In this document: piece after piece, positions 4,171 to 21,689 of the stretch
Numbering within the stretch: position 1 is the stretch's first letter
Layout of the letters: each line of letters opens with the position of its first letter
Source: a virus
Virus record (IMG/VR): IMGVR_UViG_3300003314_000001
Span: 1-64,000 of that record
Length of the DNA stretch: 64,000 nucleotides
Reading direction: 5' to 3' (one strand)
Program-made: the position numbers and the translations under genes
Notes under the pieces: model-generated
Seen by the model: the letters and a program-made list of their open reading frames with translations, nothing else
Databases searched by the model: none
Told to the model about the DNA's origin: nothing

Positions 4171-4344
4171 ATGATTGAACAGATTGCACCTATTGACATG
4201 GCTTACATGCTCGGCTTCTTCATGGCGCTCGCTCTTCGCCGTGGACGAATTGACTCAATGATTGGCGGAATGATGAAGTGGTTCCCGAACGAAAAGAATC
4301 CCGGAATCGGTCCGAGAGAGGACTCGAACGGAGGTGAGAAGTAA
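4171..4344 (+). CDS. Small membrane protein
   Basis: ATG at 4171 inside ORF-track 4093..4344, 57 aa. Hydrophobic span IDMAYMLGFFMALAL, then RRGR and a charged tail. Confidence 0.4.
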   Translation: MIEQIAPIDMAYMLGFFMALALRRGRIDSMIGGMMKWFPNEKNPGIGPREDSNGGEK

Positions 4345-4442
4345 TGGGTTACTTCGAGGAATGTCCCGACTGTGGGTCCGCTGTAGCATTCATCGAGGGT
4401 TGTGAGAAGTGCGTGGCGCGCTGTGGTTGGTCGGCTTGTTAG
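4344..4442 (+). CDS. 32-aa zinc-ribbon mini-protein
   Basis: Below the ORF-track cutoff. TAATG overlap with the upstream stop. MGYFEECPDCGS..GCEKCVARCGWSAC carries CxxC..CxxC. Confidence 0.35.
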   Translation: MGYFEECPDCGSAVAFIEGCEKCVARCGWSAC

Positions 4443-4612
4443 GGCGGCTTCCCGATTGTATGAGTGGTCTCTGCGTTAACTACGTCACTCCGTAGGTCGC
4501 GGGCCGCTTCTACTTCTGACCCATTGAAATTCTCCGGATTTCGGAGGATGTGGGTCGCATACCTACAAACAAGCTCTGCTTTCAAAGGCGACAAATCAAC
4601 TGTCCGCTTCAT
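4439..4612 (-). CDS. Hypothetical small protein (57 aa)
   Basis: Hand-translated ORF MKRTVDLSPLKAELVCRY..., the last ORF of the minus block. 4-nt convergent overlap with 4344..4442. No motif. Confidence 0.25.
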   Translation of the reverse strand: MKRTVDLSPLKAELVCRYATHILRNPENFNGSEVEAARDLRSDVVNAETTHTIGKPP

Positions 4613-4706
4613 ATTCTTTCTAACAACACCAAAGTATAAAAACGTTACTCTGATGTGTCCCGGAAAAGGTTCAACTCCTGTCCGGGACTACTCACTCAAT
4701 ACGTAT

Positions 4707-4734
4707 CCGTTACAGGGTGAAATGACTGTAACGG
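4707..4734. terminator. Perfect 9-bp hairpin in the convergent late/early junction
   Basis: CCGTTACAG-GGTGAAATGA-CTGTAACGG, between the end of the plus late operon and the end of the minus block. Confidence 0.35.
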
Positions 4735-4789
4735 CGCTCTCCCATTAAAAACAGCTATTTTCGGAGGGAGAACGATTCTACGTCCTACT

Positions 4790-4885
4790 TTATCCTAAAT
4801 GAATATAATAAAAGAACATAATCGAAACGATAGCCATTAGAAACCCAAAGAGAAAAATATAGAATCCATCGTGGAAGCAAGGCAT
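4790..4885 (-). CDS. 31-aa single-TM mini-protein
   Basis: MPCFHDGFYIFLFGFLMAIVSIMFFYYIHLG. Its ATG lies 1 nt after the stop of 4887..5234. Confidence 0.3.
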   Translation of the reverse strand: MPCFHDGFYIFLFGFLMAIVSIMFFYYIHLG

Positions 4886-4886
4886 C

Positions 4887-5234
4887 TCAATTTTCGTCAT
4901 ATTCTTTCCAGTAGAGCGCGTTCACTTTCCGGACGAGAACGTCAACGTGACAGTCCATGTGACTTGGACAACTACAAGCAATCCGTTTCCCGTACAGACT
5001 TTTCAAGGCTTCCCGGAACCAACTCTTTTCCTCTATGAGCCACGTAAGGTCTCGCTCATACAGTTCAATTGCTTGGTCCCGGTCGTAGTCGTTCAACTTG
5101 TATGGATTGCCAAGCCAGCCTTCCTGACCTATCTCGTGGTTGTTAGCGGCTGTTGCTATGTTCCGCTCTCCGTTGTTTCCTCTGCCACCGTACAAGTCGT
5201 AGTCGTCGGTCGTATGGACTCTTTTTGTTGTCAT
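4887..5234 (-). CDS. DUF4326-like protein
   Basis: 115 aa. GNPYKL ... ACSCPSHMDCHVDVL fits the DUF4326 pattern (GNPF ... CxC ... CHxDVL) common in phages (recalled). Confidence 0.7.
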   Translation of the reverse strand: MTTKRVHTTDDYDLYGGRGNNGERNIATAANNHEIGQEGWLGNPYKLNDYDRDQAIELYERDLTWLIEEKSWFREALKSLYGKRIACSCPSHMDCHVDVLVRKVNALYWKEYDEN

Positions 5235-5485
5235 TGACTGAATGGTCTGGAATCCTGTATAGGGAATCCAAATGTTGTGATTTCGTATTCGCCGTCTTCA
5301 CGCTTCCCGACTTCCTCTAGTTGTTTGTAAGCCGACTCCCCACAACATAAAGCTATCGGATTTCCGTCAACGTAGAGAAGGTAATAATAGACTTCTTCAG
5401 ATAGCTCGTAAGTCTCCGTATCCCTCTCTCTACCGCTAAGATTGTCTTGGATTACCATAGTTATTTTATCTTTTCGTCTAACCAA
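5231..5485 (-). CDS. Hypothetical protein
   Basis: 84-aa ORF with ATGA overlap to the downstream gene. No motif. Confidence 0.55.
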   Translation of the reverse strand: MVRRKDKITMVIQDNLSGRERDTETYELSEEVYYYLLYVDGNPIALCCGESAYKQLEEVGKREDGEYEITTFGFPIQDSRPFSQ

Positions 5486-5586
5486 TACCTCTGTAAACCT
5501 CCGGCAAGACTCATGTACAGTATTATAAGGAAAGCTAACCCAGTAATATTTTCTGTCATATTCTTGTAGTGTTCAGCGAACCACAT
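5461..5586 (-). CDS. 41-aa single-TM mini-protein
   Basis: MWFAEHYKNMTENITGLAFLIILYMSLAGGLQRYWLDEKIK. Overlaps the start of 5231..5485 by 25 nt. Below the ORF-track cutoff. Confidence 0.3.
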   Translation of the reverse strand: MWFAEHYKNMTENITGLAFLIILYMSLAGGLQRYWLDEKIK

Positions 5587-5686
5587 GCTTGACACCGGAC
5601 TACACCCTCATTCCATGAATGTTGACAGTTGTTACAGACTCTCATTGGTTTTCATTCAGGAACGGATACAATGGAGTTTCACTCAT

Positions 5687-6511
5687 TTATGGCGCTCGTA
5701 GACTGTTGTTGTTCACGAAGCGGTCATACATTTCCGCCGTAATCGGAGCGTATTCCTCCATTAAGTCTGCCACCATTGACGCGAAATCCTGTGCTTCCCA
5801 TTGCGCCTTCTGGTTATCCCGAATGTCGAACAAATGCATGAGGCTACGCATGTTTCCGGAGAACGTCATGTTTACCGGAGTGGCTTGTGGCAGGAAGAAC
5901 CGGGCGTCCTCTTTCGGAATTCCAGCCTCAATTGCCTCACTATACCTTGCTACCGACATTTCCCAATGAGTTTCCAAAGTATCAGCCCATGTTTCATAGA
6001 TAGTAAGGTCAGATTCTGGTTCTTCCATTGAAGGTGGAACTACCGGGTCTTTTCCACCGAAATTTGCGTAACGTTGGCTTTGAACGTCCCAACTCTTGTG
6101 TCGGTGTCGCGTTACTTGAGCCATTGCGACTCGGCTAATGTCTTCTACGGCGAAGTAGAAGTTCACATGCTCGAACGGACCGAAGTGGCCGCGTCGAAGC
6201 AAGTCTGCTATCATCGCCCGCAACTTCGCCTGATAGATGAATCGGTCCGGGAATTTCTTCACACCATAGTTATTCCACCGCCGTTCCACATGGTCTTCAT
6301 CATACTCCCATTCTTCGCCAACTTCCTTGAGAAACACGAGGTCGGACGCTTCCAGATTGTACCCGTTTATTGCTTCTTCCGGACTGACCCCAATCAGCGA
6401 CTCTTCCATGTAGTCGCCACGGGCCGCATACGCTGGAATTTCGTCAGGGGTAAGGTTGTCGCTCGATTCCATCGCCAATCCGTTCGTGACCGCTTTTACT
6501 TCTATATTCAT
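5687..6511 (-). CDS. thyX: Flavin-dependent thymidylate synthase ThyX
   Basis: 274 aa with ThyX signature RHRHKSWDVQSQRY (RHRxxSxxxxSxR). Confidence 0.92.
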   Translation of the reverse strand: MNIEVKAVTNGLAMESSDNLTPDEIPAYAARGDYMEESLIGVSPEEAINGYNLEASDLVFLKEVGEEWEYDEDHVERRWNNYGVKKFPDRFIYQAKLRAMIADLLRRGHFGPFEHVNFYFAVEDISRVAMAQVTRHRHKSWDVQSQRYANFGGKDPVVPPSMEEPESDLTIYETWADTLETHWEMSVARYSEAIEAGIPKEDARFFLPQATPVNMTFSGNMRSLMHLFDIRDNQKAQWEAQDFASMVADLMEEYAPITAEMYDRFVNNNSLRAP

Positions 6512-6849
6512 CGGTTAAATACCGTGTATTCGTAAGTTTCAGCAACGAAATTTAGTTTGTTGTCTTCGGTTCCTGTCACTATGAAACTTTCAAGTTGAAG
6601 CTGTTCTATATCTGTTTCCGAAATTACCTTCAACTGTAATGGTTTTCCATGTTTGTTAAAGAAGTCCTTTCTCGAAACCTGAATATGTCTGAATTCTATT
6701 TCTCCTTCTATTTCTGTTCGTGTTAATACTGTTCTTCTATCACTAATGAATTTTATTACACAATCTACGTCGCAATCACTGTATACGAAACCATTACTTG
6801 CGACTACTCTAGCATTTTCCAATTCTATTTTTTGTTTTGATTCCATCAT
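6508..6849 (-). CDS. Hypothetical protein
   Basis: 113-aa ORF with ATGA overlap to the thyX start. AT-rich, no motif. Confidence 0.55.
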   Translation of the reverse strand: MMESKQKIELENARVVASNGFVYSDCDVDCVIKFISDRRTVLTRTEIEGEIEFRHIQVSRKDFFNKHGKPLQLKVISETDIEQLQLESFIVTGTEDNKLNFVAETYEYTVFNR

Positions 6850-6939
6850 TCTTGTAGATTTTCGTCGTGTCTTTCGCCCTCTGCCATCTTCCAGATTGTT
6901 GGAAGTAGGTCTTTTACAGCTTCGTCTCCGTCCTCTCCT

Positions 6940-7948: not shown

Positions 7949-10495
7949 TCAGCAGAACGCCGACAGACCTGCCTGCTGTTGTCCCGATATGGCGGCGTCC
8001 ACATCAACTCCTATAGCGCCGAGAATCGGTTCCAGTGGAGAACGAATGGTCAGGTCTAACATCTTCACCGTGCGTACCTCAAGCCGACTCTCAAGCTCGT
8101 CGTCGGCATTCTCGAAGTCCTCGAACGTGATAACGTCCACTTCTTCTCCGTCAACCAGAACTTCCGGATTGTTGAGGTAGACCCGACCGGGTTTCGCACT
8201 GTTTTGCATTTCTACTCCCGTCAACTCCGACCAGAACTGGTAGCCGCGAAGGTGAGCCGTCACCGAATCGTACTCGTCAAACGGCTGTCCGAAACCTCCC
8301 GGAACCTTGATACGTTCCCATGACGGGTCTTCGCCACCAATCTCGTCGGCGGCGTCCTCCACAATCCGACTGATTTCCTCGTCCGACTTCAAGTCCAGAA
8401 TCGCGTGAATGACTTTCACTTGCGTTTCCTCGGACAGTTCGGAACTGTCAGACCGCTCCGAACCGTATCCAGTGATAGTGTACGACGGGCTTTCCATCCA
8501 CGTTCCTTCCTCCCACACGTCCTTGTGGGCGTACCGCTTCTTGTTTCCGGACTGGAAGAACGTCTCTGCGAGTGCTTCCGGTTCTATCTCCCAACGGTTG
8601 TCTTCTTCCGGAATACCAAACTCGGTGGCGAATTCCGGATACACTTCCTCGTTAAGCTCTCGGCAGATTTCCTTCGTCCGCTCCACACATTTCTCGTGGG
8701 AGTATTCGTCCGGGAACTTGATGTAGTTACTGTCCGTGTCACCGTAGGCGATTTTGCACTCGGTTTCCTCCCGAACGTATCGGGCGGTCTCCTTGATACA
8801 TTCTTGACCTAACTGTGTGACTGCTTCCGCCGCTTGCGGGTCGAACAGGAAGAATGGTTCCCACCCACCGACTCCGTATGTGGAGTTAGTGACAGTTTTC
8901 TTGGAACCGTATTCTTCCTCTTTCGCCTCGAATTCTTCCGTTCCCGGTTCCATCTTCTTTAGCTCCTTCTTCGCCGCTTCCTTCAGCGAAATGCCTTCGT
9001 CGGTAATCGCCGGAAGTGCCGCGTCCTTATCAAGTCGGAAGTACGCTACGTCACCAGTCTGTTCCAGCGGTGCTTCCGAAACGTTGATTCCGATACTCCG
9101 GAGCTTTTCGACCTTGGCTTCCAGACTGTCGAAGTTACTGTCTTCGTCCAGTGTTACCTTGGATTCCGACCCAAGATTGAACATCGCCATCGTGTTCGGG
9201 TACAGACTGGAAAGGTCGATACCCATAACATTCAGGAGAACACCAATGGACGGGTCGAAAACGTAGGAACCCTCAAAGTCGTAGTCCGGACGACCATAAT
9301 TCGTAGTCGGACCGACTTTCTCCCAATCGTGAAGCTTTCGCCGCGCCATCATCTCGATGTAGTCCGAATTGGAACGAGTGTCGTTCCAGTCTACACCAAC
9401 AACGTCCCGGAGCGTTCCCCAAAATGAGAACACTTCCAGTTCGTTGTTCAAGTCACGACATAGAGTAACGTCAACAGCGTTATAATTAAGGAGAAGTGTT
9501 GGGTCTTCCTTCCACATCTGGTGGTAGCCCATGTTAGTGTGTTCCACCTTATCCGCACCAATTTCCATTTGGGCTACGTCGCCAAGAGCCTTCACGTCCG
9601 GTTCCGTGAACTTCGTCCGAAGCCATGCGTCCTGTAAGTCGTAGACGGTTCGACCCTTGATGATTGGCGTTCCGGAACGAGTAACTTTACTGAAGCCTTC
9701 ACGGGAAAGACTTCCGGAATCCAATCCTATCTTATCGAACCGCTGGATGAAGTGGCGTGCGTCGAAATCCTCGAAGTTCCATCCGGTTAGAATGTCGGGG
9801 TCAGTGTTCTCAATGAAGTCCGAGAACGCTTCCAACATCATCTTTTCGGTCGGGCGAACTTCCAGTCGGTCCAAGTTCTCTGGTCGTCCGTTCGGGAAGC
9901 ATTCTTCCACACCTCTTCCACCAGTCTGGAAGAACCCAACCGTCTCGCCGTTGAACGAGTCTTCCGCGACTATGGACAGAATCTCCGTCTCACCGTCCTT
10001 GTCAAAGTTACCTCGGTCGTCAGTCTCTATGTCGATGTAGGAAATCCGGGATTCCGGTTCCTTCATCTCAATAGCTTCAACTTCCGAGATATGACATTCC
10101 TCGTCAGGGACACGGATTCCAGTATAGACTCCTGTCTGAATCCGGAACAACTGTTCGAGGGACACGTCCGCTCCGTAGCGGTCGTCGTAGTCGAAATACT
10201 TCTCCGCTATGTCTCGGGCGTCCCACTGACTCTCCACGTCGATACGCGACAAGTCTTCGTCCTTCCAGCCTTTCTTCACTGGGTCGTGTTCGATATTTTT
10301 AACGGACTGTACAGAATGAAGTTCGTCGGCTTTCTCATGGACCTTCTCCGTAGGGGCGAAGAAGCGCGGCTGTAGACCGTACACAGTCGCCGAATCAAGC
10401 CTGTTGTCTTCTGTACGTCCGTACAGTCTAATCTTCTGCTCGTTCGTATTGTAGTCCTTGACGGACTCCGTATTGGTGATTTTGAATTCTTTCAT
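7949..10495 (-). CDS. polB: Family B DNA polymerase
   Basis: 848 aa. Exo I YIDIETDD, Exo II GWNFEDFD, Exo III YNAVDV, motif A DLSSLYPN, motif B KKTVTNSTYG, motif C YGDTDS. Confidence 0.95.
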   Translation of the reverse strand: MKEFKITNTESVKDYNTNEQKIRLYGRTEDNRLDSATVYGLQPRFFAPTEKVHEKADELHSVQSVKNIEHDPVKKGWKDEDLSRIDVESQWDARDIAEKYFDYDDRYGADVSLEQLFRIQTGVYTGIRVPDEECHISEVEAIEMKEPESRISYIDIETDDRGNFDKDGETEILSIVAEDSFNGETVGFFQTGGRGVEECFPNGRPENLDRLEVRPTEKMMLEAFSDFIENTDPDILTGWNFEDFDARHFIQRFDKIGLDSGSLSREGFSKVTRSGTPIIKGRTVYDLQDAWLRTKFTEPDVKALGDVAQMEIGADKVEHTNMGYHQMWKEDPTLLLNYNAVDVTLCRDLNNELEVFSFWGTLRDVVGVDWNDTRSNSDYIEMMARRKLHDWEKVGPTTNYGRPDYDFEGSYVFDPSIGVLLNVMGIDLSSLYPNTMAMFNLGSESKVTLDEDSNFDSLEAKVEKLRSIGINVSEAPLEQTGDVAYFRLDKDAALPAITDEGISLKEAAKKELKKMEPGTEEFEAKEEEYGSKKTVTNSTYGVGGWEPFFLFDPQAAEAVTQLGQECIKETARYVREETECKIAYGDTDSNYIKFPDEYSHEKCVERTKEICRELNEEVYPEFATEFGIPEEDNRWEIEPEALAETFFQSGNKKRYAHKDVWEEGTWMESPSYTITGYGSERSDSSELSEETQVKVIHAILDLKSDEEISRIVEDAADEIGGEDPSWERIKVPGGFGQPFDEYDSVTAHLRGYQFWSELTGVEMQNSAKPGRVYLNNPEVLVDGEEVDVITFEDFENADDELESRLEVRTVKMLDLTIRSPLEPILGAIGVDVDAAISGQQQAGLSAFC

Positions 10496-12158: not shown

Positions 12159-13235
12159 TTATAGTTCTCCGAGTTTTTCCAGCTTGTACTGTCCGTACCA
12201 CACGGGATTGAAGAATTCGTCCTGTAGCGGCCAGTACGAATCAATTCCCATGTGTTCCGCAATCATGTCTTGGTCGTATCCCGATTCAATCATTCCGATG
12301 AAGGTTTTCTTTTCCTCGAACGGTTTCCCCCAATCGGATTCACAGTCGTCGTAGTTGTCACACTTCCCGTCCCCGTAGTGACATAGTGCGCCGGGACTAA
12401 TGCCGAAATCCTCCATTTCAGGATTCATGTCCGGCGGGGTAGTGTTCATCTTCCGGTTTCCGTCAGCGATAATCTTTTGAACGTAAGCCTGTCGTTCCGG
12501 GTCCGGTTCATCTACAAGGAAATCATGATTTTTGGGATAATAGCCTGCTATCCCGTCAACCTTGTAGTCTTCGGAGAATATCATTCCGTAATATTCCCCT
12601 TGGAGGAAGATTCCGTCGTCGCGGTACTTCTCGTCCGGAGTCTTCCCGGTTTTGAAGTCCACTATGACAACTCCATCGTTTCCGGAGACTTCTGGAACAG
12701 AAGCCGATGGAACTATCACGTCGGCGAAGCCCATCCAGTCCGGACCGTCGCCTTGCTCAAGCCACCCTTCTTCCTCTACTCCTCGGGGTAGCCATGCGTC
12801 TAAAGCGTATTCTATTACGGTCTTTCCGTCCCGTGGGTCGTCCAGAGACCGGAATTTCTTCGCCGCGTGTTCTTTCGCGGCTTCCGCTCGTTCCAATTCC
12901 CATGCTATGAACGAACTTACCATGTCCGTCCAGTCCGCCCATAGGAGAACGTCTTCCGGAAGGAACCGTGTAAGGTCCTTCGGACAGTCGGGAAGGGTCC
13001 CGCCGTCTTCGTAGTGTTCAAGCAGGTTCTCATAGTACACTTCGTAAGTATAGTGTACCCGAGTCCCCTGCTTCATGGCGTCCGTCTCTTCCGCTCTACG
13101 TCCGAGAACGTAGGTGTAGTAGAAGTTACGCCAACACTTCTCTGCCGTCAACAGCCGCGACTTACTCCAGTATGGTAGTTCTCCCTCCTTTGCTTCCTCC
13201 TTACACTTCTGTATTTTCGTTGTTTCCGAAGGCAT
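12159..13235 (-). CDS. Cas4/RecB-family PD-(D/E)xK exonuclease
   Basis: 358 aa. N-terminal Cys (EKCWRNFYY), GFADV, IVDFKTGK (D-x-K), QGEYYG (QxxxY) and a C-terminal Cys triad CHYGDGKCDNYDDC typical of a Cas4-type Fe-S cluster. Confidence 0.8.
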   Translation of the reverse strand: MPSETTKIQKCKEEAKEGELPYWSKSRLLTAEKCWRNFYYTYVLGRRAEETDAMKQGTRVHYTYEVYYENLLEHYEDGGTLPDCPKDLTRFLPEDVLLWADWTDMVSSFIAWELERAEAAKEHAAKKFRSLDDPRDGKTVIEYALDAWLPRGVEEEGWLEQGDGPDWMGFADVIVPSASVPEVSGNDGVVIVDFKTGKTPDEKYRDDGIFLQGEYYGMIFSEDYKVDGIAGYYPKNHDFLVDEPDPERQAYVQKIIADGNRKMNTTPPDMNPEMEDFGISPGALCHYGDGKCDNYDDCESDWGKPFEEKKTFIGMIESGYDQDMIAEHMGIDSYWPLQDEFFNPVWYGQYKLEKLGEL

Positions 13236-14246: not shown

Positions 14247-14288
14247 TCTCCCTCCTTACCAAGAAGAGCAAGGGACTTAAGTCTTACG
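14247..14288 (-). promoter_or_regulatory. Class-3 promoter-like repeat
   Basis: Gene-sense CGTAAGACTTAAGTCC-N12-TTGGTAAGGAGGGAGAA. Confidence 0.5.
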
Positions 14289-14655
14289 CAATTGGAGGGT
14301 ATGGGTTCTCTCCGCAAGAAACGCACTCGTAGTCTTCTAACTCGTCTTTTGATACGGGGGAGTTACATTCGTTACATTTCGGAGTTGTACTTTTCTCTTC
14401 CTCAAGACGCGCCCAGTTCTCCGCGTATCCGGCAACGTCCGCCGGATTATCTTCGTCGTAGTGGCCGTTCTTACTTCGGGCTATCTTCATCAAGATGAAC
14501 ATGATAGCCGCGTCTATCTCGGACACGTCAACGCCAAGATACCAACTCCAAGCTCCAGCTATTTCATCGAAGGTATCTTCCGGTTCCCCATGTTGTTCCG
14601 GACGACTGTACACGATTTCCGCCGCCTGTTCTAAGATATAGGTATCGTGTTCCAT
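14284..14655 (-). CDS. DUF6378-like phage domain fused to a C-terminal zinc ribbon
   Basis: ATG (MEHDTY...). ILEQAAEIV..QHGEPEDTFDEIAGAWSWYLG..IMFILMKIARS..DVAGYA fits the DUF6378-type pattern (recalled). C-terminal CNECN..CVSCG. Confidence 0.6.
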   Translation of the reverse strand: MEHDTYILEQAAEIVYSRPEQHGEPEDTFDEIAGAWSWYLGVDVSEIDAAIMFILMKIARSKNGHYDEDNPADVAGYAENWARLEEEKSTTPKCNECNSPVSKDELEDYECVSCGENPYPPIA

Positions 14656-14789
14656 TAGTTTTCCTCGTCGTTCCAAGGGTGTGTCGGACAGTCGTGGTTT
14701 GAACACGTTGTTGCTCCGGCATGTACCTCTAACGTAGCTCCACACGTCTCACAGTCGTCTTCCGAGTCTCTTATATATGTTTTATTCAT
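14655..14789 (-). CDS. 44-aa zinc-ribbon mini-protein
   Basis: MNKTYIRDSEDDCETCGATLEVHAGATTCSNHDCPTH.... TAATG and ATGA coupling to neighbours. Confidence 0.4.
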   Translation of the reverse strand: MNKTYIRDSEDDCETCGATLEVHAGATTCSNHDCPTHPWNDEEN

Positions 14790-14911
14790 AACTTTACGAA
14801 TCCGGTTGCGCGTTTTGGACAGTCATCATTTGGGCACGTTCCTGTCCATCTGTTCGTTGTTCGGTCGTCTCTGTACACTGTTCCACAGCAAGATGTTGCA
14901 TACTTATTCAT
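14786..14911 (-). CDS. 41-aa zinc-binding mini-protein
   Basis: MNKYATSCCGTVYRDDRTTNRWTGTCPNDDCPKR.... ATGA overlap with the upstream stop. Confidence 0.4.
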   Translation of the reverse strand: MNKYATSCCGTVYRDDRTTNRWTGTCPNDDCPKRATGFVKL

Positions 14912-15228
14912 ACCATTTGACTTCGGACTCGGATGATTTTTCCAACGAATCGGTCTACTCGTCCCGGCCACGCCACATAGACGAAACCGCCGTCGTATCC
15001 AGCTACTTGGACGTTCTTCGTTTCGTAGTTTCCATCCTTCGTTTTCAGGACAAGCTTGTACGGCTCTCCGTTAGTGATTAGTTCGTGGATTTCTCCACCT
15101 TCTAATGAGTCTTGTCTTCCAGTCCGGGTGGCGTACCGGAGCTTCCCGTTCAAGACCATTGCGTCCACTACGTCTTGTTCAGTCCACTGTTCGCCGTCTC
15201 TCTGTAGGGTTACTTCCGTTGGTTTCAT
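14908..15228 (-). CDS. Hypothetical protein
   Basis: 106-aa ORF directly downstream of a class-A promoter repeat. Confidence 0.55.
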   Translation of the reverse strand: MKPTEVTLQRDGEQWTEQDVVDAMVLNGKLRYATRTGRQDSLEGGEIHELITNGEPYKLVLKTKDGNYETKNVQVAGYDGGFVYVAWPGRVDRFVGKIIRVRSQMV

Positions 15229-15379: not shown

Positions 15380-15778
15380 TCATTCTTCCACGTACTCCTT
15401 GATGTTCTCCGCCGTAGTCGGACCGACACCATCCACTTCTTCCAACTCGTCGGTCGAAAATTTCCGAACGTCCCGCTCGTTCTTGATTCCAATGTTGGCG
15501 AGATTCTTCGCCGTGCTTTCACCTACTCCGTCGATTTCACCGTAGTCTACCGGAACGGGGTCTTTCACTCTTTTGGATACGTTTTCACCAGATTCTTCCG
15601 GAATCTCGCTTTCAGGAGTTTCTTCCACACCGTCAGTATCTTTGACAGAATCATGTAGTTCTACCAGTGCAACGAACTGTCCGGAACTGAAAGGACGGTT
15701 CGTGTACGTCTCTATTATCTCGCCCGGTACTTCCATCACTTCTTCTACCTGAATCGTAAGGAACGTATATCGGTTCAT
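15380..15778 (-). CDS. Helix-hairpin-helix DNA-binding protein
   Basis: 132 aa. Two HhH motifs, IDGVGESTAKNLANIG and VDGVGPTTAENIKEY. Confidence 0.65.
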   Translation of the reverse strand: MNRYTFLTIQVEEVMEVPGEIIETYTNRPFSSGQFVALVELHDSVKDTDGVEETPESEIPEESGENVSKRVKDPVPVDYGEIDGVGESTAKNLANIGIKNERDVRKFSTDELEEVDGVGPTTAENIKEYVEE

Positions 15779-15783
15779 TATTG

Positions 15784-16167
15784 CTAGTCTTCTACGTTGA
15801 TTCCAGCACGAAGCACTTCTCGGTCGCCGTCCTGAAGCCGTCCAGTCAAGTTGAACGCGGACTGTGCGAGACGACGGAATCGTTTCTCTAATTGGACTGT
15901 CTCGGCGTCGTCAGCCTTCTCATGAAGGGCTTGGTGCATTTCCCGTCCCTTACCCTTTATTTCATCGAGGTTGTCATGTAGCTCGTTCAGGCGGTCTTCG
16001 TACTCGGCGGCTTCCCGCTCTTGAACAGACTCAGGGTCTTCAGCCGTTTCTACAGGCTTAGTGGCTTGAAGGTCCTTCTTATCGCCTATCTCCATTATTT
16101 CTTCAGCAGACATTTCTTTTTCTTGCTTTTCCACTTCGCCTTCACCAGAATCGAGATTTTCGTCCAT
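15784..16167 (-). CDS. Hypothetical acidic coiled-coil protein
   Basis: 127-aa ORF, co-oriented and Glu-rich. Confidence 0.55.
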   Translation of the reverse strand: MDENLDSGEGEVEKQEKEMSAEEIMEIGDKKDLQATKPVETAEDPESVQEREAAEYEDRLNELHDNLDEIKGKGREMHQALHEKADDAETVQLEKRFRRLAQSAFNLTGRLQDGDREVLRAGINVED

Positions 16168-16169
16168 TG

Positions 16170-16634
16170 TTAGTCTCTATAAGCGTCAGCGTCGTTCGAC
16201 GGACCGGGGTCTCGTAGAGCCGGAGGTCTCTGGTATTTGTTTCCAGAAGCACCCCTGTTACGATTATTGGCTTCGTTAGCCGACCCTTGACAGTACTTAT
16301 CTCCGTAGATTGTTCCAGCGAAACTCTTGTCATCTTCCGGACGGTGACTGATAACAAGACCACATGATTGACAGACTACTTCTCCACGGTCGTCGTAACG
16401 TCCGATTCCGTCTTCGCATTCCGGACAACCCATGTGGTAGTCGAACGTGTTTTTAACGTATTTGCTCTTATCGTCCTTGGGAATGACCACACTGTGTCCG
16501 GTCAACTCCATGACTCGAATCCAGTGGTCGTCCTTGTCCGGAAGCTGGTCGAACCTGACAGGTTCACAGACGACGTTATCCTCGGCACGAATTTCTACAG
16601 CAGTCTTATCAGCACGCTTGTCGATTTTGTTCAT
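16170..16634 (-). CDS. Protein with TFB/TFIIB-type zinc ribbon
   Basis: ATG at 16634 (ORF-track GTG at 16682 is the alternative). CPECEDGIGRYDDRGEVVCQSCGLVI matches the TFIIB zinc-ribbon pattern CPxC..D...GExVCxxCGLV. Confidence 0.6.
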   Translation of the reverse strand: MNKIDKRADKTAVEIRAEDNVVCEPVRFDQLPDKDDHWIRVMELTGHSVVIPKDDKSKYVKNTFDYHMGCPECEDGIGRYDDRGEVVCQSCGLVISHRPEDDKSFAGTIYGDKYCQGSANEANNRNRGASGNKYQRPPALRDPGPSNDADAYRD

Positions 16635-16773
16635 TTGTCGGGGGGAGAGAGTTAGTTTCTGGTCAGTTCGTAGAATTCTCACAAACCTGTTCTAAGTCGG
16701 GAAGCGTGCATCCAGCGGTGGGGGTTTTCCACCTACTTGAGACAAAGGGAAGCGGGTCATTTAAGTCTTCTGA

Positions 16774-16963: not shown

Positions 16964-18217
16964 TCAGTAGACCTCTGCTAGATTCACGAATTCTGTCTTC
17001 TCCCATGTTTGTTCGTCCGATACTGCAAGGAAGTATCCGCACGGGTATCCGAATTCGCCCATCGCTTCCGCGTACTCCGAAGGCGGCGCTATCGTTCCAC
17101 CCATGAAGACACGTCGTCCGTTGTAGTGTTCGTTCTTCAACTGGTGGTTGTGGCCGTAGAAGCCAAGGTCGAACTGGTGTTCGTCCTTCCAGCTACCCCA
17201 TAGGCTCTGCTGTGAGCTTGTTCCGATGTGACCCCGAGTGTTCTGTCCGTGGCGTAGGTGTCCGCGCCACTCTCCATCACGAAGATAGAAGTTCGTGTAG
17301 TACTCATGTTCATCCATGATAAACGTAATGTTATCGTACTGGTTCTTATTCCGGAATGCACTCTTCCGGATGTTGTGGTCCAGTAACGCACAGAGGAAGT
17401 CGTCGGCGTTCGCGTCTCCGGAACTACCATCCACTCGGAATTCTCCGTGGTTTCCATTCTGACAGACCACTTGAACAGTCGGGAAGCGTTCCGAGAGTCG
17501 CGCTACCACCTGCTCGAAAACGGAGATAGCACGAATCAACTGGTCCTTGATAGTCTCGTCAACGTCCCAAGACTGCCCATCGTAGATAGCCTCGTTCGTG
17601 ACTATATCCCCACCGAGAAGCAGGTGAACGGTGTCGATAGTGTATCCAGCGGCTTCCAACTCGTCCGCCCACTGGATGAACTTTTGGAGAAGGTAGAAGA
17701 TTCGGTTTTCCGCAATCTCCGAACTGAAGATTTCTTCCACCTGTTCCTCACCGTCCGGTTGTCGGGTAACGCTAACATGCTTGTCTCCGAAGTGACTGTC
17801 CGTAACGTGAAACACTAAGTCCAACCCGCCAGACGTTGCTTGAAGGCCGCCGTCCGCAACTGGTTGAGGGTAATTGTTTCGCTTCTCCTTCCAGTCTTCG
17901 ATTTCGGCGAAGAATTCGTTCGCTCTTTTCGTAATCGTTTGTTTTGCGACGTTATTGCTACGAGCTCCCTGCTTCGTTGCATTAACGGGTCCGTCTTGTT
18001 CCGTGGGACTGATTATCGTGTACTGTTCGTGGGTTCCGTAGGTCTTACCAATCTGGAATTCGGTGTCTTCCAGATTGTTCACCATGCCGCTAATGTGGTC
18101 GTACACCGCGCTCTTAGAAATACTAAGCTTGTTCTGTATTTCTTCCGCGCTATGGTCTTGTTCGGCGAGCAATTCGTAGACTTGTCGCTGTCGGTCGGTC
18201 AAATCCTCGAAAGACAT
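16964..18217 (-). CDS. HTH domain fused to calcineurin-like metallophosphoesterase (Mre11/SbcD-like)
   Basis: 417 aa. N-terminal LTDRQRQVYELL..ISKSAVYDHI (HTH). Phosphoesterase motifs HVTDSHFGD, LGGDIV, NGNHGEF, GHNHQ. Confidence 0.8.
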   Translation of the reverse strand: MSFEDLTDRQRQVYELLAEQDHSAEEIQNKLSISKSAVYDHISGMVNNLEDTEFQIGKTYGTHEQYTIISPTEQDGPVNATKQGARSNNVAKQTITKRANEFFAEIEDWKEKRNNYPQPVADGGLQATSGGLDLVFHVTDSHFGDKHVSVTRQPDGEEQVEEIFSSEIAENRIFYLLQKFIQWADELEAAGYTIDTVHLLLGGDIVTNEAIYDGQSWDVDETIKDQLIRAISVFEQVVARLSERFPTVQVVCQNGNHGEFRVDGSSGDANADDFLCALLDHNIRKSAFRNKNQYDNITFIMDEHEYYTNFYLRDGEWRGHLRHGQNTRGHIGTSSQQSLWGSWKDEHQFDLGFYGHNHQLKNEHYNGRRVFMGGTIAPPSEYAEAMGEFGYPCGYFLAVSDEQTWEKTEFVNLAEVY

Positions 18218-18227
18218 AATGTGTCGG

Positions 18228-19463
18228 TTAGTGTTTCGCTATCTCCTGTAAGTCCGGACTGTCCCGGAACGTCTTACAAGAGTCTTTCAGGCAGAACTGT
18301 TCTGCCGTCTCCAGTATCTTGGAGCAGTTGAACTGCTGGTAGTCCCGCGAGAGGACTTCCTTAATTCGTTTATGTGTCGTTTCGTAGTCATAATCCGGAC
18401 TGGAAGCAAAGAATTCATGCATGACCACCGGGTGAGTACCTACCGAGGCCATAGCGAGAATCGCTTGCATTTCCATGTTGTGAGACGCAACACCCTCCGA
18501 AAACATCTGGTCGTTCTCCCGGAACCGCCAGATACAGGGTTTCCGTCGCAACAACATCTTCAAATCTTCCAGTTCAATATCCCGATTTGCCTGCTTCCGG
18601 TACTCCTTGTACTTTTGCTCGTCCTTAACGGACACAGTTCCAGTACTCGTATGAGTATCAACGGAAGCATTCCGGATATTGTTACGGATGATTTTCGCGC
18701 TACGTTCCTGTTCCGTCCGTTTCGCACCTTCCGGAACACGACGAGGATTCCGCGTCATTTTGACGTAATGTTCTACGCCAATCTGCTTCATTTCCTCGTT
18801 CGTAACCGGAATACAGTACCGTTCTTCTTGGAAGGCTTTCGTTGCTTTTTCGTGTATGGTGTTTGGCAACCTTGTCAATCGTGCTAAGTCCCATCCGGAA
18901 CTTACGTCGATGAATTCTTCAAGGTCGTCGTATCCAGACACTTCAATAAGTCTCTCTACTACTATATCCGTGAACGATTCCATTCCGTTCCGGAATTGCG
19001 CTGGACTTCCAGCACTGAATGAAATCGCTGGAAAGTCTAAGTAGAGGTGTGCGCCCTTGAAACCGGAGAGAGACCAACGGAAGTAGTCGTCCTTCCCGGC
19101 TTCTTCAAGGGCTTCAGCGACCGCGTTAAGCCTATCCAAGAGCTTCTTCATGTGGAGAGCATACTTGTGTCGCTGTATCTCTCCGTCTGACGTGAACTTC
19201 GTTTTATCCACGTCGAAATCTATCATGAGTGTGTCTATCAGGGGTATGTTTTGTCCATCATTTGTGGGGTGTCCCCACGGGAAGCTGTAAACGGACACGT
19301 ACCCCGGATAGTCCTTTTCGTATTTCTTGATGTTATGGACTAGTTCCTCTCGCCCTTGGGAAGTGAATTGACAGAATTCGCCACCCGCTTCTCCGACTGT
19401 ACGGCGAGGGAAGTTCGGCGTCCATACTTTTGCTGTTTCGTGTAATAGTTCTTGATGTTTCAT
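18228..19463 (-). CDS. Archaeo-eukaryotic primase (AEP/PrimPol-like)
   Basis: 411 aa. Motif I MIDFDVD, motif II SGFKGAHLYL, motif III RLPNTIHEK. Cys-rich C-terminal part. Confidence 0.7.
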   Translation of the reverse strand: MKHQELLHETAKVWTPNFPRRTVGEAGGEFCQFTSQGREELVHNIKKYEKDYPGYVSVYSFPWGHPTNDGQNIPLIDTLMIDFDVDKTKFTSDGEIQRHKYALHMKKLLDRLNAVAEALEEAGKDDYFRWSLSGFKGAHLYLDFPAISFSAGSPAQFRNGMESFTDIVVERLIEVSGYDDLEEFIDVSSGWDLARLTRLPNTIHEKATKAFQEERYCIPVTNEEMKQIGVEHYVKMTRNPRRVPEGAKRTEQERSAKIIRNNIRNASVDTHTSTGTVSVKDEQKYKEYRKQANRDIELEDLKMLLRRKPCIWRFRENDQMFSEGVASHNMEMQAILAMASVGTHPVVMHEFFASSPDYDYETTHKRIKEVLSRDYQQFNCSKILETAEQFCLKDSCKTFRDSPDLQEIAKH

Positions 19464-20117: not shown

Positions 20118-21689
20118 TTACAGTGTAGCCTGTCCAGCCTGTCCAGACATGGACTTCTTCGGTTCCGATTCCGATTCCTGCTCGTCGTCGGCTTCCCGAC
20201 TGTCTCCGGATTCGTCGTCAGACCCACCATAAAGCGGGTCGTCCATACTTTCGATTTCTTCCACTGAATCTTCAGCGGCCTCGTTCAGTTCATTATCTTC
20301 CAAGATGTTCACTTCCTCGCCCGTAATAGGATGTTCCACCTCCAAGGCGTCACCTTCACAGAACTTCTTGATGTACTTTTCAGCCCGCTCTTCCGACATG
20401 GTTTCGCGGGCAATCATCTTCGTATCTTCTACAACTTGCTCCCAGTCCAGAATTTCGTTGCCTTCCAACGCTATTTCTTGACCGAGCATGGAGCAAGCGT
20501 AACTTACTCGTCCAGCGCCCTCGTTGAACTTCCGGACGTAGTGCTTATTGAACATAGCGTCCAGACTGTTCCGAACTTGGTCCTCGTTCGGGTTCAGTCC
20601 TTCCGCCTGAAGGATAGTCACCATGTCCAACACGTCGTACTCCGTGTTCGGGTTATTCCGCATTTCCTTCAACATCACCTTGTCAATCGCCTTCAGATTG
20701 AGAGCGGACATGACAAGGTTCTCACCGAAAATTTTCATTCCGTGGAAAGCGTCAGCCGGAGCGACGTACAACTCTGCCTGTCCGGAATCACTGATTGCTC
20801 CCGGAAGCTTCATTCGACGGTCGTGGTAGAACAGCGTGATTCCCTCAAGCATATCCATCAGCTTGAGGTTGTCGAAGCGTCCCTCCACGAACTTCGCCGG
20901 AATCGGCTCCTGCATGACCACTGCTTCCGATACCGGGTCTACGACTTTACCGTCGCCGTCTTCTCCGAATTTCTTTATCGGAATGTTATTATTGTGGTCC
21001 CGAATCTCTCCAAGACGCTCGTCGTCAATCCGAGGTTCGTACCGTCCGGATTTGATAGCGGCTTGTCGTCGCTGAATCTTCCGAGTTAGTTCTTCCGAAG
21101 CGTCCGTGTCCAGCACGATAACGCGCTTCCGGATTTCCTCGAAGTCGTTCCGGAGGTCGATTTTGTCGTTGTCGCTTGCGATTGTGAAGAAGCTGGAACG
21201 GGGCGCTTCCAAGACCATGTTCTCGATTTGGCCTTGAGTTCCGTCCGCGTCGGAAAGAGTCACGTCCACTTTTTCGTGGGTCGCGGCCTTCCCTTCACCG
21301 AACTGTTTCGCAATCGCTTCAACTACTTCGTCAATCGACACGAAGTCCATGAACCGCTGAATCGGGAACCGGTTAATCGTGGGAGATTTGTAGAAGGGAA
21401 CTTTCGCCGACATTTCACTCGGCCAATGATACCACTGTGTTCCCTTCTGTAATTCCATCTCCCAATCAATTTCTTCACTGGTGTCCGGAATCGGATGCCA
21501 CAACCATTCAGTCGCGTCCAGTATCTCGTCCTTCCCACCACGAGACGGTCCGTTGAGAATCACGTCTTCGCCGCAAATGGAACACGTATGGCAGGTCAGG
21601 ATGTTCTCCTTCTCGCCTACGATTCCACGGTCTCGGGTCGCTTCCGCAAGTTCTGACAGCGTTACGGGGTTGTCGTCAATTGCGCTCAT
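20118..21689 (-). CDS. Putative P-loop NTPase (family unresolved)
   Basis: 523-aa ORF. Walker-A-like NGPSRGGKD and Walker-B-like VIVLDTDASEE. Acidic C-tail. Replication-module neighbourhood. Confidence 0.45.
   Translation of the reverse strand: MSAIDDNPVTLSELAEATRDRGIVGEKENILTCHTCSICGEDVILNGPSRGGKDEILDATEWLWHPIPDTSEEIDWEMELQKGTQWYHWPSEMSAKVPFYKSPTINRFPIQRFMDFVSIDEVVEAIAKQFGEGKAATHEKVDVTLSDADGTQGQIENMVLEAPRSSFFTIASDNDKIDLRNDFEEIRKRVIVLDTDASEELTRKIQRRQAAIKSGRYEPRIDDERLGEIRDHNNNIPIKKFGEDGDGKVVDPVSEAVVMQEPIPAKFVEGRFDNLKLMDMLEGITLFYHDRRMKLPGAISDSGQAELYVAPADAFHGMKIFGENLVMSALNLKAIDKVMLKEMRNNPNTEYDVLDMVTILQAEGLNPNEDQVRNSLDAMFNKHYVRKFNEGAGRVSYACSMLGQEIALEGNEILDWEQVVEDTKMIARETMSEERAEKYIKKFCEGDALEVEHPITGEEVNILEDNELNEAAEDSVEEIESMDDPLYGGSDDESGDSREADDEQESESEPKKSMSGQAGQATL

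What the first reader, a model, noticed from the sequence alone, without database searches (positions are those of the whole stretch)
16170..16682. Viral protein carrying a TFB/TFIIB-type zinc ribbon behind an unknown N-terminal domain
CPECEDGIGRYDDRGEVVCQSCGLVISHRPEDD closely follows the TFIIB zinc-ribbon consensus (CPxCg...D...GExVCxxCGLV). In TFB that ribbon docks onto RNA polymerase. Here it sits at residues ~100-130, after an unrelated ~100-aa domain, and is followed by a disordered basic/Gly tail with no cyclin core. A ribbon-only TFB mimic could recruit, block or redirect host RNAP during infection.
Basis: partly seen in the sequence, partly recalled or inferred. Interest (0 to 1): 0.6.

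Follow-up and report, generated by a model that had tools for sequence, protein, structure and literature searches.

The report
Viral core-less TFB zinc-ribbon protein
A salt-lake archaeal virus, like all its cultured relatives, carries a small gene whose zinc-binding module copies the part of the host's transcription start factor TFB that grips RNA polymerase but lacks the DNA-binding part. This makes it a good, still untested, candidate for how these viruses take control of host transcription.

Summary
The ORF at 16170-16682 (-) lies in a complete 67-kb tailed haloarchaeal virus related to the Hafunaviridae, and it carries a Cys4 ribbon of TFB type.

- **Pfam:** PF08271 scores 23 bits, below its cut-off of 29.
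- **Family profile:** a 49-member profile matches haloarchaeal TFB N-termini at hhalign probability 97% (E 5e-11).
- **Reciprocal search:** in three whole haloarchaeal genomes the viral profile finds a provirus-like family member first. Ranks 2-24 are bona fide TFB ribbons.
- **No cyclin core:** none exists in the protein or anywhere in the virus.

- The true start is probably the ATG at 16634, giving 154 aa.
- The "N-terminal domain" is a conserved RADK beta-strand plus a subfamily insert, and it is predicted to pack onto the ribbon.
- The tail is not basic. It is predicted to be disordered but carries conserved motifs.

The gene is a positional core gene in all four Hafunaviridae genera (HF2 HrrHF2_295, annotated only as a "CxxC/Zn-finger protein"). 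It always follows the primase and a phosphoesterase.

Best reading (about 0.5): a core-less TFB mimic that binds the host RNA polymerase. RNA polymerase binding is inferred, not shown. The earlier scan notes I retrieved do not report this protein on other DNA; one follow-up report overlapping this stretch was withheld.

The parts
16170..16634 (-). Corrected gene: a 154-aa protein plus its stop codon (stop at 16170-16172), starting at the ATG at 16634 (MNKIDKRADKT...).
   Evidence: Homologues P0004 and most family members begin at or near this Met. Conservation starts here.
16635..16682 (-). The 16 codons between the GTG at 16682 and the ATG at 16634. They are part of the mechanical ORF but are probably not translated.
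   Evidence: This stretch is not conserved in P0003 or P0004. The ORF list takes the first possible start codon.
16575..16634 (-). N-terminal conserved motif, residues 1-20. R7 and D9 are invariant, and A8 is invariant or nearly so, in the three broad family alignments. Predicted as a beta-strand (residues 9-17).
   Evidence: Invariant columns in alignments A2, A3 and A8. pLDDT 77-86. The equivalent strand in the short-type member has pLDDT 81-88.
16461..16574 (-). Subfamily-specific insert, residues 21-58. It is absent from short-type members. An insert sharing the LP(D/E) and VM(E/W)xT motifs (my reading of alignment A7) is present in the Halorubrum halodurans copy, and one lies at the same position in a metagenome copy.
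   Evidence: Alignments. ORFs. pLDDT only 51-69.
16329..16460 (-). TFB-type zinc ribbon with its lead-in strand, residues 59-102. The Cys ligands are C70 (16425-16427), C73 (16416-16418), C88 (16371-16373) and C91 (16362-16364).
   Evidence: PF08271 at E 5e-5. 1pft at E 1.6e-5. hhalign probability 97%. Reciprocal genome search. pLDDT 87-94. Codons read.
16173..16328 (-). C-terminal tail, residues 103-154. It is predicted to be disordered but carries conserved motifs: Y110/DKY114, N-R127-G128-x-S-G, and D142-PGPS146. Net charge is 0.
   Evidence: Conservation. pLDDT below 50. Charge.
16635..16773 (.). 139-bp intergenic region upstream of the gene, a candidate promoter region. It holds one copy of the over-represented 9-mer CTTCCCGAC (16696-16704, minus strand) and GACTTAAAT (16759-16767, minus strand).
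   Evidence: Sequence. The 9-mer occurs 31 times against about 1 expected. Promoter function was not tested.
15784..16167 (-). Downstream 127-aa acidic protein. Its start lies 2 nt after the stop of the ribbon gene. It is a positional orthologue in the hafunavirus loci examined, and a possible partner.
16964..18217 (-). Upstream 417-aa calcineurin-like phosphoesterase with an N-terminal HTH of sigma region 4 / YlxM type. It is a conserved neighbour.
   Evidence: phrog_284 at 1.7e-49. Pfam HTH families. NCBIfam. Synteny.
18228..19463 (-). Archaeo-eukaryotic primase-like protein (411 aa), a conserved neighbour two genes upstream.
   Evidence: phrog_9660 at 4.5e-106 and phrog_16345 'primase'. Annotated as 'DNA primase' at the same position in HCTV-6, HRTV-27, HSTV-4 and HRTV-25.

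Best explanation
The gene encodes a virus-specific, core-less derivative of the archaeal transcription initiation factor TFB.

Architecture:
- A compact all-beta domain of about 65-100 residues, in which a TFB-type Cys4 ribbon is extended by N-terminal strands that begin with an invariant R-A-D motif.
- A flexible tail of 35-60 residues with short conserved motifs.
- No B-linker and no cyclin/BRE-binding core, so it cannot by itself place RNA polymerase on a promoter.

Proposed mechanism (inferred):
1. The gene is made with the middle/replication genes.
2. Its ribbon docks on the same site of the host RNA polymerase that host TFBs use, the dock near the RNA exit channel.
3. It thereby either competes with the many host TFBs (host shut-off) or acts in trans as a co-factor that redirects the polymerase to viral middle/late promoters. 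The truncated TFB3 of Sulfolobales acts in trans in this way.
4. The conserved tail and N-terminal motif would give a second contact, to the polymerase or to a viral partner.

Shown here: ribbon homology, absence of a core, family-wide conservation and synteny.
Inferred: polymerase binding and its consequence.
For: - **Specific TFB-type ribbon.** Pfam PF08271 is the top hit, and 8 of 9 relatives hit it. NCBIfam's only hit is TFIIB model NF001658. The family profile's best solved-structure hit is the P. furiosus TFB ribbon 1pft at E 1.6e-5; yeast and human TFIIB follow at E 0.18-0.84.
- **Profile against profile.** hhalign against 20 TFB N-termini (19 haloarchaeal) gives probability 97%, E 5e-11 over 43 columns.
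- **Reciprocal search.** In three whole haloarchaeal genomes the viral profile ranks a provirus-like family member first. Twenty-three of the 24 places that pass the Pfam cut-off follow directly at ranks 2-24, and the 24th is at rank 26. Searches confirm that those places checked are TFB genes with GPEW(R/S)xF.
- **Structure.** The Foldseek top ranks are TFIIB ribbons at rmsd 1.4 A over 27-28 residues, although the E-values are not significant.
- **Residues after the last Cys.** The hydrophobic residues (CG-L/V/M-V/M-I/L) are kept. From my recollection of the yeast TFIIB literature, those residues matter for polymerase binding.
- **No core.** PF00382 is absent from the protein and from the whole virus.
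- **Strong selection.** The gene is a positional core gene in all four Hafunaviridae genera and in uncultured relatives.
- **Dependence on the host polymerase.** HF2-type viruses rely on the host RNA polymerase. Their early/middle/late switch is attributed to unidentified virus proteins (PMC8707807). The HF2 orthologue HrrHF2_295 lies in the early/middle arm.
- **Precedent.** The core-less TFB3 activates transcription through its ribbon (PMC6101594). The viral protein RIP mimics TFB parts to block RNA polymerase (PMC9501531).
Against: - No experiment or complex model shows RNA polymerase binding.
- Single sequences score only 20-25 bits on PF08271. That is the same range as unrelated ribbons in haloarchaeal genomes, whereas true TFB ribbons score 45-75 bits.
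- The ribbon is internal, not N-terminal. It is predicted to share a sheet with extra strands, which might cover the surface that TFB uses on the polymerase.
- The tail gives no added profile score against the TFB B-reader.
- The invariable neighbours are replication and nuclease genes, not transcription genes.
- From my recollection of the human TFIIB literature, the polymerase-contacting surface of TFIIB ribbons is poorly conserved. Sequence therefore cannot confirm a docking surface.
Confidence: 0.5

Rival explanations
1. Replication-module accessory. The ribbon domain is a protein-protein or ssDNA-contact module that works with the neighbouring primase, the HTH-phosphoesterase (Mre11- or PolD-small-subunit-like) or the family B polymerase. 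It might, for example, tether or regulate the nuclease. Its likeness to TFB ribbons would then reflect ancestry only.
For: - The gene order primase, phosphoesterase, Zn protein, small acidic protein ... Cas4-like nuclease ... PolB is invariant in all loci examined.
- The gene abuts its downstream neighbour and is possibly translationally coupled to it.
- The phosphoesterase has a weak hit to the PolD small subunit (E 0.0038). From my general knowledge, the PolD small subunit binds a zinc module of its partner.
- Zinc ribbons occur in PriA and topoisomerase I, which appear among the weak fold matches at Z 2.1-2.5.
Against: - The ribbon matches TFB ribbons specifically and reciprocally, not primase, helicase or polymerase zinc modules.
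- Gene order in viral modules is often kept without any physical interaction.
- The fold matches to PriA and topoisomerase I are insignificant.
Confidence: 0.22
2. Sequence-specific DNA-binding regulator. The zinc domain, with or without the tail, binds viral promoter or repeat DNA (for example the over-represented CTTCCCGAC 9-mer). It would act as a classical repressor or activator without touching RNA polymerase.
For: - Small CxxC proteins are the usual suspects for regulators in HF2-like viruses (PMC8707807).
- A zinc-finger protein of AFV1 is the one archaeal Zn-finger protein functionally characterised so far (PMC5569661).
- One copy of the 9-mer lies 62 nt upstream of this gene.
Against: - From general knowledge, TFB ribbons bind protein, not DNA.
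- The protein is acidic (pI 5.2). The ribbon is net -4, and the tail is 0 here and -2 to -12 in nine of the ten relatives computed. No basic surface is evident.
- No HTH or other DNA-binding domain was found.
Confidence: 0.12
3. Generic structural zinc-ribbon protein, with only a convergent or chance likeness to TFB and no role in either transcription or replication. It could be, for example, an anti-defence or host-takeover factor with another target.
For: - PF08271 scores below its cut-off and 'rings' in bacterial control genomes too.
- Structure searches give no significant match.
- Most of the protein outside the ribbon has no known relative.
Against: - hhalign E 5e-11, and the ranking of TFB ribbons above all other ribbons in three genomes.
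- Shared non-ligand residues: CPEC, YD, RGE-V/I-V/I-C, CG-L/V-V-I.
Confidence: 0.12

Closest known systems
Archaeal TFB / eukaryotic TFIIB B-ribbon (Pfam PF08271; P. furiosus TFB N-terminal domain, PDB 1pft)
   Same: A Cys4 ribbon with the same spacing and the same non-ligand residues (CPxC, YD, RGE-V-C, CG-L-V-I). Supported by hhalign probability 97%, 54% identity and rmsd 1.4 A over 28 residues to 1pft, and a reciprocal best class in host genomes.
   Different: - The ribbon is internal, after 69 residues, not N-terminal.
- Extra beta-strands are predicted to extend it.
- There is no recognisable B-reader, B-linker or cyclin core.
- Scores are below Pfam's cut-off.
- The protein is 154 aa, against about 300-360 aa.
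Sulfolobales TFB3, a truncated TFB paralogue (PMC6101594)
   Same: It keeps the four-Cys TFB ribbon but lacks the DNA-binding C-terminal domain. Its function needs the ribbon, and it acts in trans with full-length TFB/TBP. It is the best cellular precedent for how a core-less ribbon protein can work.
   Different: - TFB3 has its ribbon at the N-terminus and a conserved C-terminal coiled coil. The viral protein has an N-terminal beta extension and a non-helical tail.
- TFB3 is cellular, crenarchaeal and DNA-damage induced. This family is viral and haloarchaeal.
- No direct sequence comparison with TFB3 was made here.
Hafunaviridae 'Zn-finger domain protein' / 'putative CxxC motif protein' (HF2 HrrHF2_295, HSTV-4 gp65, HRTV-25 gp59, HCTV-6 gp60, HRTV-27 gp60; PHROG phrog_30999)
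   Same: Direct orthologues. They share the R-A-D N-terminal motif, the ribbon, the position right after the primase and phosphoesterase, and the following small acidic protein.
   Different: - Identity is only 25-35%.
- The window protein belongs to an uncultured sub-branch (68-70% identity to two metagenome proteins) with a 38-residue insert and a longer, well-conserved tail.
- None of the records examined gives the orthologue more than a generic zinc/CxxC name, and the papers I read (PMC8651126, PMC8707807) do not link it to TFB.
Full-length viral TFB homologues of rudiviruses and Asgard-archaeal viruses
   Same: Archaeal viruses that borrow part of the host initiation factor (PMC9501531; bioRxiv 10.1101/2021.07.29.453957).
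   Different: Those papers call them homologues of TFB and do not report truncation. That they keep the cyclin core, and so could bind promoters themselves, is my reading and was not checked. The family here is ribbon-only. The Asgard paper states that TFB homologues among archaeal viruses were known only from rod-shaped viruses of hyperthermophiles.
ATV RIP (ORF145) and Sulfolobus TFS4, inhibitors of archaeal RNA polymerase
   Same: Small factors that act directly on RNA polymerase during infection. RIP mimics the TFB B-linker topologically and competes with TFB. TFS4 uses zinc ribbons (PMC9501531). They are functional analogies for the 'blocker' version of the hypothesis.
   Different: RIP is not known to share homology with this family. 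It binds the clamp and DNA channel, not the dock. TFS4 enters the NTP channel and is host-encoded.

Membership tests
TFB/TFIIB zinc ribbon (Pfam PF08271 Zn_Ribbon_TF) | Scores at or above Pfam's gathering cut-off (29 bits) | tested here: not met
   23.2-23.8 bits. True haloarchaeal TFB ribbons score 45-75 bits. The precomputed table does list PF08271.18 for the 113-aa gene call and for several relatives.
TFB/TFIIB zinc ribbon (Pfam PF08271 Zn_Ribbon_TF) | Homology to TFB ribbons by profile-profile and reciprocal search; four Cys ligands with TFB spacing | tested here: met
   hhalign probability 97%, E 5e-11. 1pft is the best PDB hit. All 24 places above the cut-off in three genomes are recovered by the viral profile, 23 of them at ranks 2-24 directly after the family's own member and one at rank 26. 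C70, C73, C88 and C91 are invariant.
Full transcription factor TFB/TFIIB | Two cyclin-like repeats (PF00382) that bind TBP and the BRE | tested here: not met
   No PF00382 match in the protein or in the whole 67-kb virus. Only 52 residues follow the ribbon.
Full transcription factor TFB/TFIIB | B-reader (GPEWRxF helix and SRVG loop) directly after the ribbon | tested here: inconclusive
   In short-type members an acidic-aromatic pair lies 14-15 residues, and an (S)RG 26-28 residues, after the last Cys. TFBs have EW at +14 and R at about +28. hhalign puts E-Y on E-W. Global and tail-only alignments add no score.
Full transcription factor TFB/TFIIB | B-linker between reader and core | tested here: not met
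The protein ends 63 residues after the last Cys.
Full transcription factor TFB/TFIIB | Ribbon binds the RNA polymerase dock and recruits the enzyme | not testable with these tools
   No multimer prediction or experiment is available.
TFB3-type truncated TFB (Sulfolobales) | N-terminal four-Cys ribbon plus a conserved C-terminal coiled-coil motif, no HTH core (PMC6101594) | tested here: not met
   The ribbon is present and the core is absent. But the ribbon is internal, and both models show no helix of 4 or more residues in the tail. No direct alignment with TFB3 was made.
Hafunaviridae Zn-finger/CxxC protein downstream of primase and phosphoesterase | R-A-D N-terminal motif plus ribbon; profile match | tested here: met
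   Alignment. The family profile finds one clear member in each of HF2, HSTV-4, HRTV-25, HCTV-6 and HRTV-27, at E 1e-21 to 9e-7.
Hafunaviridae Zn-finger/CxxC protein downstream of primase and phosphoesterase | Conserved gene order: primase, phosphoesterase, Zn protein, small acidic protein | tested here: met
   Window ORFs compared. Also a Halorubrum halodurans contig and metagenome contigs.

The most novel reading that the evidence does not exclude
The family would be the first virus-encoded mimic of the TFB N-terminal domain.

- The ribbon would dock on the haloarchaeal RNA polymerase.
- The conserved tail carries an E-aromatic pair and then (S/N)RG in the same register as the start-site-selecting E and R of the TFB/TFIIB B-reader. 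It would thread toward the RNA exit channel or active-site cleft.
- The virus-specific R-A-D strand would bind a replication-module partner.

The protein would thus displace host TFBs and couple middle/late viral transcription to genome replication, in functional analogy to T4 gp33/gp55/gp45. If so, it would be the long-sought temporal switch factor of HF1/HF2-type viruses.
Probability: 0.2. Interest if true: 0.8.

Novelty: new variant of a known kind. Interest (0 to 1): 0.55.

Why it matters
Archaeal viruses have no RNA polymerase of their own, and very few factors by which they control the host enzyme are known. For the HF1/HF2 group, the largest family of cultured haloarchaeal tailed viruses, the early/middle/late programme is documented. 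The proteins that drive it are not known (PMC8707807).

A family-wide core gene that carries the polymerase-docking module of TFB but not its promoter-binding core is a concrete, easily testable candidate. Orthologues exist in cultivable virus-host pairs (HF2, HSTV-2, HRTV-7).

If it binds the polymerase, it would also be a natural probe of ribbon-dock function in a eukaryote-like transcription system. It would be a third, architecturally different, case of TFB capture by archaeal viruses.

Tried and rejected
- **Direct searches with the window.** Megablast of the region and tblastn of the window protein against cultured phage records gave no match. Cultured relatives appeared only when more typical family members were used as queries.
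- **IMG/VR scans.** Scans with alignments A1 and A4 and with proteins P0007 and P0012 gave no relatives.
- **Genome scan.** With A4 it found one true member and three TFBs.
- **Longer or fused forms.** None at E <= 0.01. This is weak evidence, because a 30-residue match cannot reach significance in that database.
- **Fold searches.** Neither model gave a significant match. TFIIB ribbons rank high, but with E > 1 and Z about 2. The extended beta domain has no recognised fold. These blanks do not show that the fold is new.
- **Tail as B-reader homologue.** The spacing agrees. hhalign in global, low-mact and tail-only modes adds no score. The tail-only score of 15.9, against 7.0 +/- 1.6 for shuffled columns, comes mostly from the last ribbon residues that I had left in. 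I treat this as inconclusive.
- **Promoter and terminator scan.** The sigma-70 / intrinsic-terminator scan does not apply to an archaeal virus.
- **Expression.** No RNA holder was listed. The only holders of the DNA are hypersaline-lake and viral-metagenome DNA runs of one study, one of which is probably the source.
- **'Basic tail binds nucleic acid'.** Rejected. The net charge is 0 here and negative in nine of the ten relatives computed.
Full report
**What is there.** The window is almost the whole of a 67,178-bp IMG/VR virus record with direct terminal repeats, rated complete. It is a tailed archaeal virus with these genes:
- large terminase, 48247-50046
- portal, 50050-51510
- major capsid protein, 53466-54407
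- family B DNA polymerase, 7949-10495
- Cas4-like PD-(D/E)XK nuclease, 12159-13235
- a primase-like protein
- seven tRNA genes

Its capsid protein is 42% identical to that of Halorubrum virus HRTV-25. All 53 matching records are haloarchaeal viruses, and all those listed belong to the HF1/HF2 group. The DNA occurs in hypersaline-lake metagenome runs. I therefore read it as a divergent hafunavirus-like virus.

**The ORF.** The ORF 16170-16682 (-) exists and contains the quoted peptide. The mechanical ORF starts at a GTG. The two close homologues (68-70% identity) and the whole family argue for the ATG at 16634. Conservation begins there with MNK(I/L)..RADKT. That gives 154 aa. The database gene call of 113 aa (P0002, from M58) would cut off a conserved motif.

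**Is the ribbon of TFB type?** Taken alone, the protein hits Pfam PF08271 (TFIIB zinc-binding) at E 5e-5 and 23.2 bits, below the curated 29 bits. This matters. In three haloarchaeal genomes true TFB ribbons score 45-75 bits, and miscellaneous ribbons score 18-28 bits. I therefore built the family and tested it further.
- HMMER over 1.8 billion representatives gave 7 relatives. A profile search gave 46.
- 8 of 9 first relatives hit PF08271.
- The family profile's best solved structure is the P. furiosus TFB ribbon 1pft (E 1.6e-5). A TnpB-type transposase ribbon is second, and yeast and human TFIIB follow at E 0.18-0.84.
- I extracted 20 TFB N-termini, 19 haloarchaeal and one from a Methanomassiliicoccales MAG, from genomes reached through. 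hhalign of the viral family against them gives probability 97%, E 5e-11 over 43 columns.
- The most telling test is the reciprocal one. The viral profile was searched in six frames against three whole haloarchaeal genomes. It finds a provirus-like family member first (48 bits). Ranks 2-24 are 23 of the 24 places that exceed the Pfam cut-off, and the 24th is at rank 26. The places I translated carry GPEW(R/S)xF, and three were read as full-length TFB genes.
- Foldseek's top ranks for the model are TFIIB ribbons (rmsd 1.4 A over 27-28 residues, 44-54% identity). The E-values are not significant for so short a match.
- NCBIfam's only hit is the TFIIB model. The language-model neighbours are PF08271 clusters and VLTF3-like proteins.

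I conclude that the ribbon is homologous to TFB ribbons, and closer to archaeal than to eukaryotic ones.

**What is not there.** No cyclin repeat (PF00382) is found in the protein or anywhere in the virus. No longer or fused form was found, though that is weak evidence.

**The rest of the protein.** The family has three further conserved features:
- An N-terminal motif, (F-I/V-G)-Q-R-A-D-K-x-x-V. R and D are invariant, and A is invariant or nearly so.
- An aromatic-Thr pair just before the first Cys.
- A tail with an acidic-aromatic pair, an (S/N)-R-G motif and a (D/E)-P near the C-terminus.

AlphaFold2 with the family alignment gives these results:
- Confident strands for residues 9-17, 59-67, 77-80 and 86-88 of the window protein. 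The tail is below pLDDT 50.
- For a short-type member, residues 10-75 form one compact six-stranded beta domain with pLDDT 81-88.

So the "unknown N-terminal domain" is best described as a beta extension of the ribbon. The window's sub-branch adds a 38-residue insert, which the Halorubrum halodurans and metagenome copies also have. No known fold matches the extended domain. The tail is not basic. Its net charge is 0, the protein's pI is 5.2, and nine of the ten relatives computed have acidic tails.

**Is the tail a B-reader?** In the short-type members the acidic-aromatic pair lies 14-15 residues, and the R of (S)RG 26-28 residues, after the last Cys. In TFBs, EW lies at +14 and the R of SRVG/RTG at about +28. 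From my memory of the yeast sua7 literature, E62 and R78 of TFIIB are the two residues whose mutation shifts start sites. hhalign does put E-Y on E-W. However, global, permissive and tail-only alignments add no score. I leave this as a suggestive coincidence of register, not a finding.

**Context.** The gene sits in the minus-strand middle/replication block, in this order:
- a 523-aa protein of unknown function (phrog_12057)
- the primase
- the HTH-phosphoesterase
- a 62-aa ORF
- this gene
- a 127-aa acidic protein that starts 2 nt after this gene's stop
- an HhH protein ... DUF6378 ... the Cas4-like nuclease ... PolB

The same order, primase, phosphoesterase, Zn protein, small acidic protein, is found in all four genera of Hafunaviridae:
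- HSTV-4 gp65
- HRTV-25 gp59
- HCTV-6 gp60
- HRTV-27 gp60
- HF2 HrrHF2_295

The order from the phosphoesterase to the small acidic protein also appears on a Halorubrum halodurans contig and on metagenome contigs. The records call the protein only "Zn-finger domain protein" or "putative CxxC motif protein". The taxonomy paper does not mention zinc or TFB (PMC8651126). A 2021 preprint states that viral TFB homologues were known only from rod-shaped viruses of hyperthermophiles and from Asgard viruses.

**How it most likely works.** HF2-type viruses depend on the host RNA polymerase. They run an early/middle/late programme whose protein regulators are unknown (PMC8707807). The HF2 orthologue lies at 26.4 kb, inside the early/middle arm.

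A protein that keeps the polymerase-docking module of TFB but cannot bind TBP or the BRE can do one of two things. It can occupy the dock and compete with host TFBs. Or it can act in trans as a co-factor, as shown for the core-less TFB3 of Sulfolobales, whose ribbon is essential (PMC6101594). Viral interference that mimics TFB parts is also known (RIP; PMC9501531).

I put 0.5 on [quoted passage not shown]. I cannot choose between blocker and redirector. The main rival (0.22) takes the invariant replication neighbours at face value and makes the protein an accessory of the primase, nuclease or polymerase. A DNA-binding regulator (0.12) is disfavoured by the acidic composition. A generic ribbon with another target (0.12) is disfavoured by the reciprocal specificity.

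**Novelty and score.** The domain assignment is visible in precomputed Pfam tables for some members. Neither the records examined nor the papers I found and read make or discuss the link to TFB for haloarchaeal tailed viruses, and the architecture differs from TFB, TFB3 and the full-length viral TFBs. I rate it a new variant of a known kind, with interest 0.55. It is a solid, cheap-to-test lead on an open question, and its function is still wholly inferred.

**Limits.**
- No multimer prediction, model coordinates or RNA data were available.

Noticed in passing
window 16170-16634 (-): The database gene call for this gene is a 113-aa protein that starts at M58 of the 170-aa ORF (P0002). It omits the family-conserved R-A-D strand and the insert. 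The homologue set indicates a start at the ATG at 16634.
   Followed up: yes
window 16696-16704 (-) and 30 other sites: The 9-mer CTTCCCGAC occurs 31 times on both strands, against about 1 expected. One copy lies 62 nt upstream of this gene's ATG. GACTTAAAT (16759-16767, minus strand) resembles the CTTAAGT-box repeat noted earlier in this scan.
   Followed up: partly
window 16964-18217 (-): The calcineurin-like phosphoesterase (phrog_284 'exonuclease') carries an N-terminal HTH of sigma-70 region 4 / YlxM type. It also has a weak hit (E 0.0038) to the small subunit of archaeal DNA polymerase D. It might be a B-subunit-like polymerase accessory rather than an Mre11-type nuclease.
   Followed up: partly
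window 15784-16167 (-): A 127-aa very acidic protein starts 2 nt after the ribbon gene's stop. Weakly similar proteins (24-26% identity) occupy the same position in HCTV-6, HRTV-27 and the Halorubrum halodurans contig. It belongs to no known family.
   Followed up: partly
window 20118-21689 (-): A 523-aa protein (phrog_12057, E 7e-110, function unknown) lies upstream of the primase, separated from it by a gap of about 650 bp. A hypothetical protein of about 490 aa is kept upstream of the primase in all the hafunavirus loci examined. It is a conserved replication-module gene with no Pfam or NCBIfam match.
   Followed up: no
window 14284-14971 (-): A cluster of further small CxxC proteins: a DUF6378 protein with a C-terminal zinc ribbon (14284-14745), and two overlapping ORFs of 44 and 61 aa with CxxC pairs. 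None of them matches PF08271; the two weak secondary matches in the virus (E 0.02-0.26) lie elsewhere, near 33.9 and 37.4 kb.
   Followed up: partly
L004 (Halorubrum halodurans NZ_NHPJ01000109.1, locus 4331-6860): A 22-kb contig of a cellular genome assembly carries a run of hafunavirus-like genes: HTH-phosphoesterase, a 154-aa family member and an acidic protein. It is either a provirus or a co-assembled virus.
   Followed up: no
window 15380-15778 (-): A 132-aa protein with a C-terminal double helix-hairpin-helix (HHH_5, E 4e-9) sits two genes downstream. It is a non-specific DNA-binding module in the same operon-like run.
   Followed up: no
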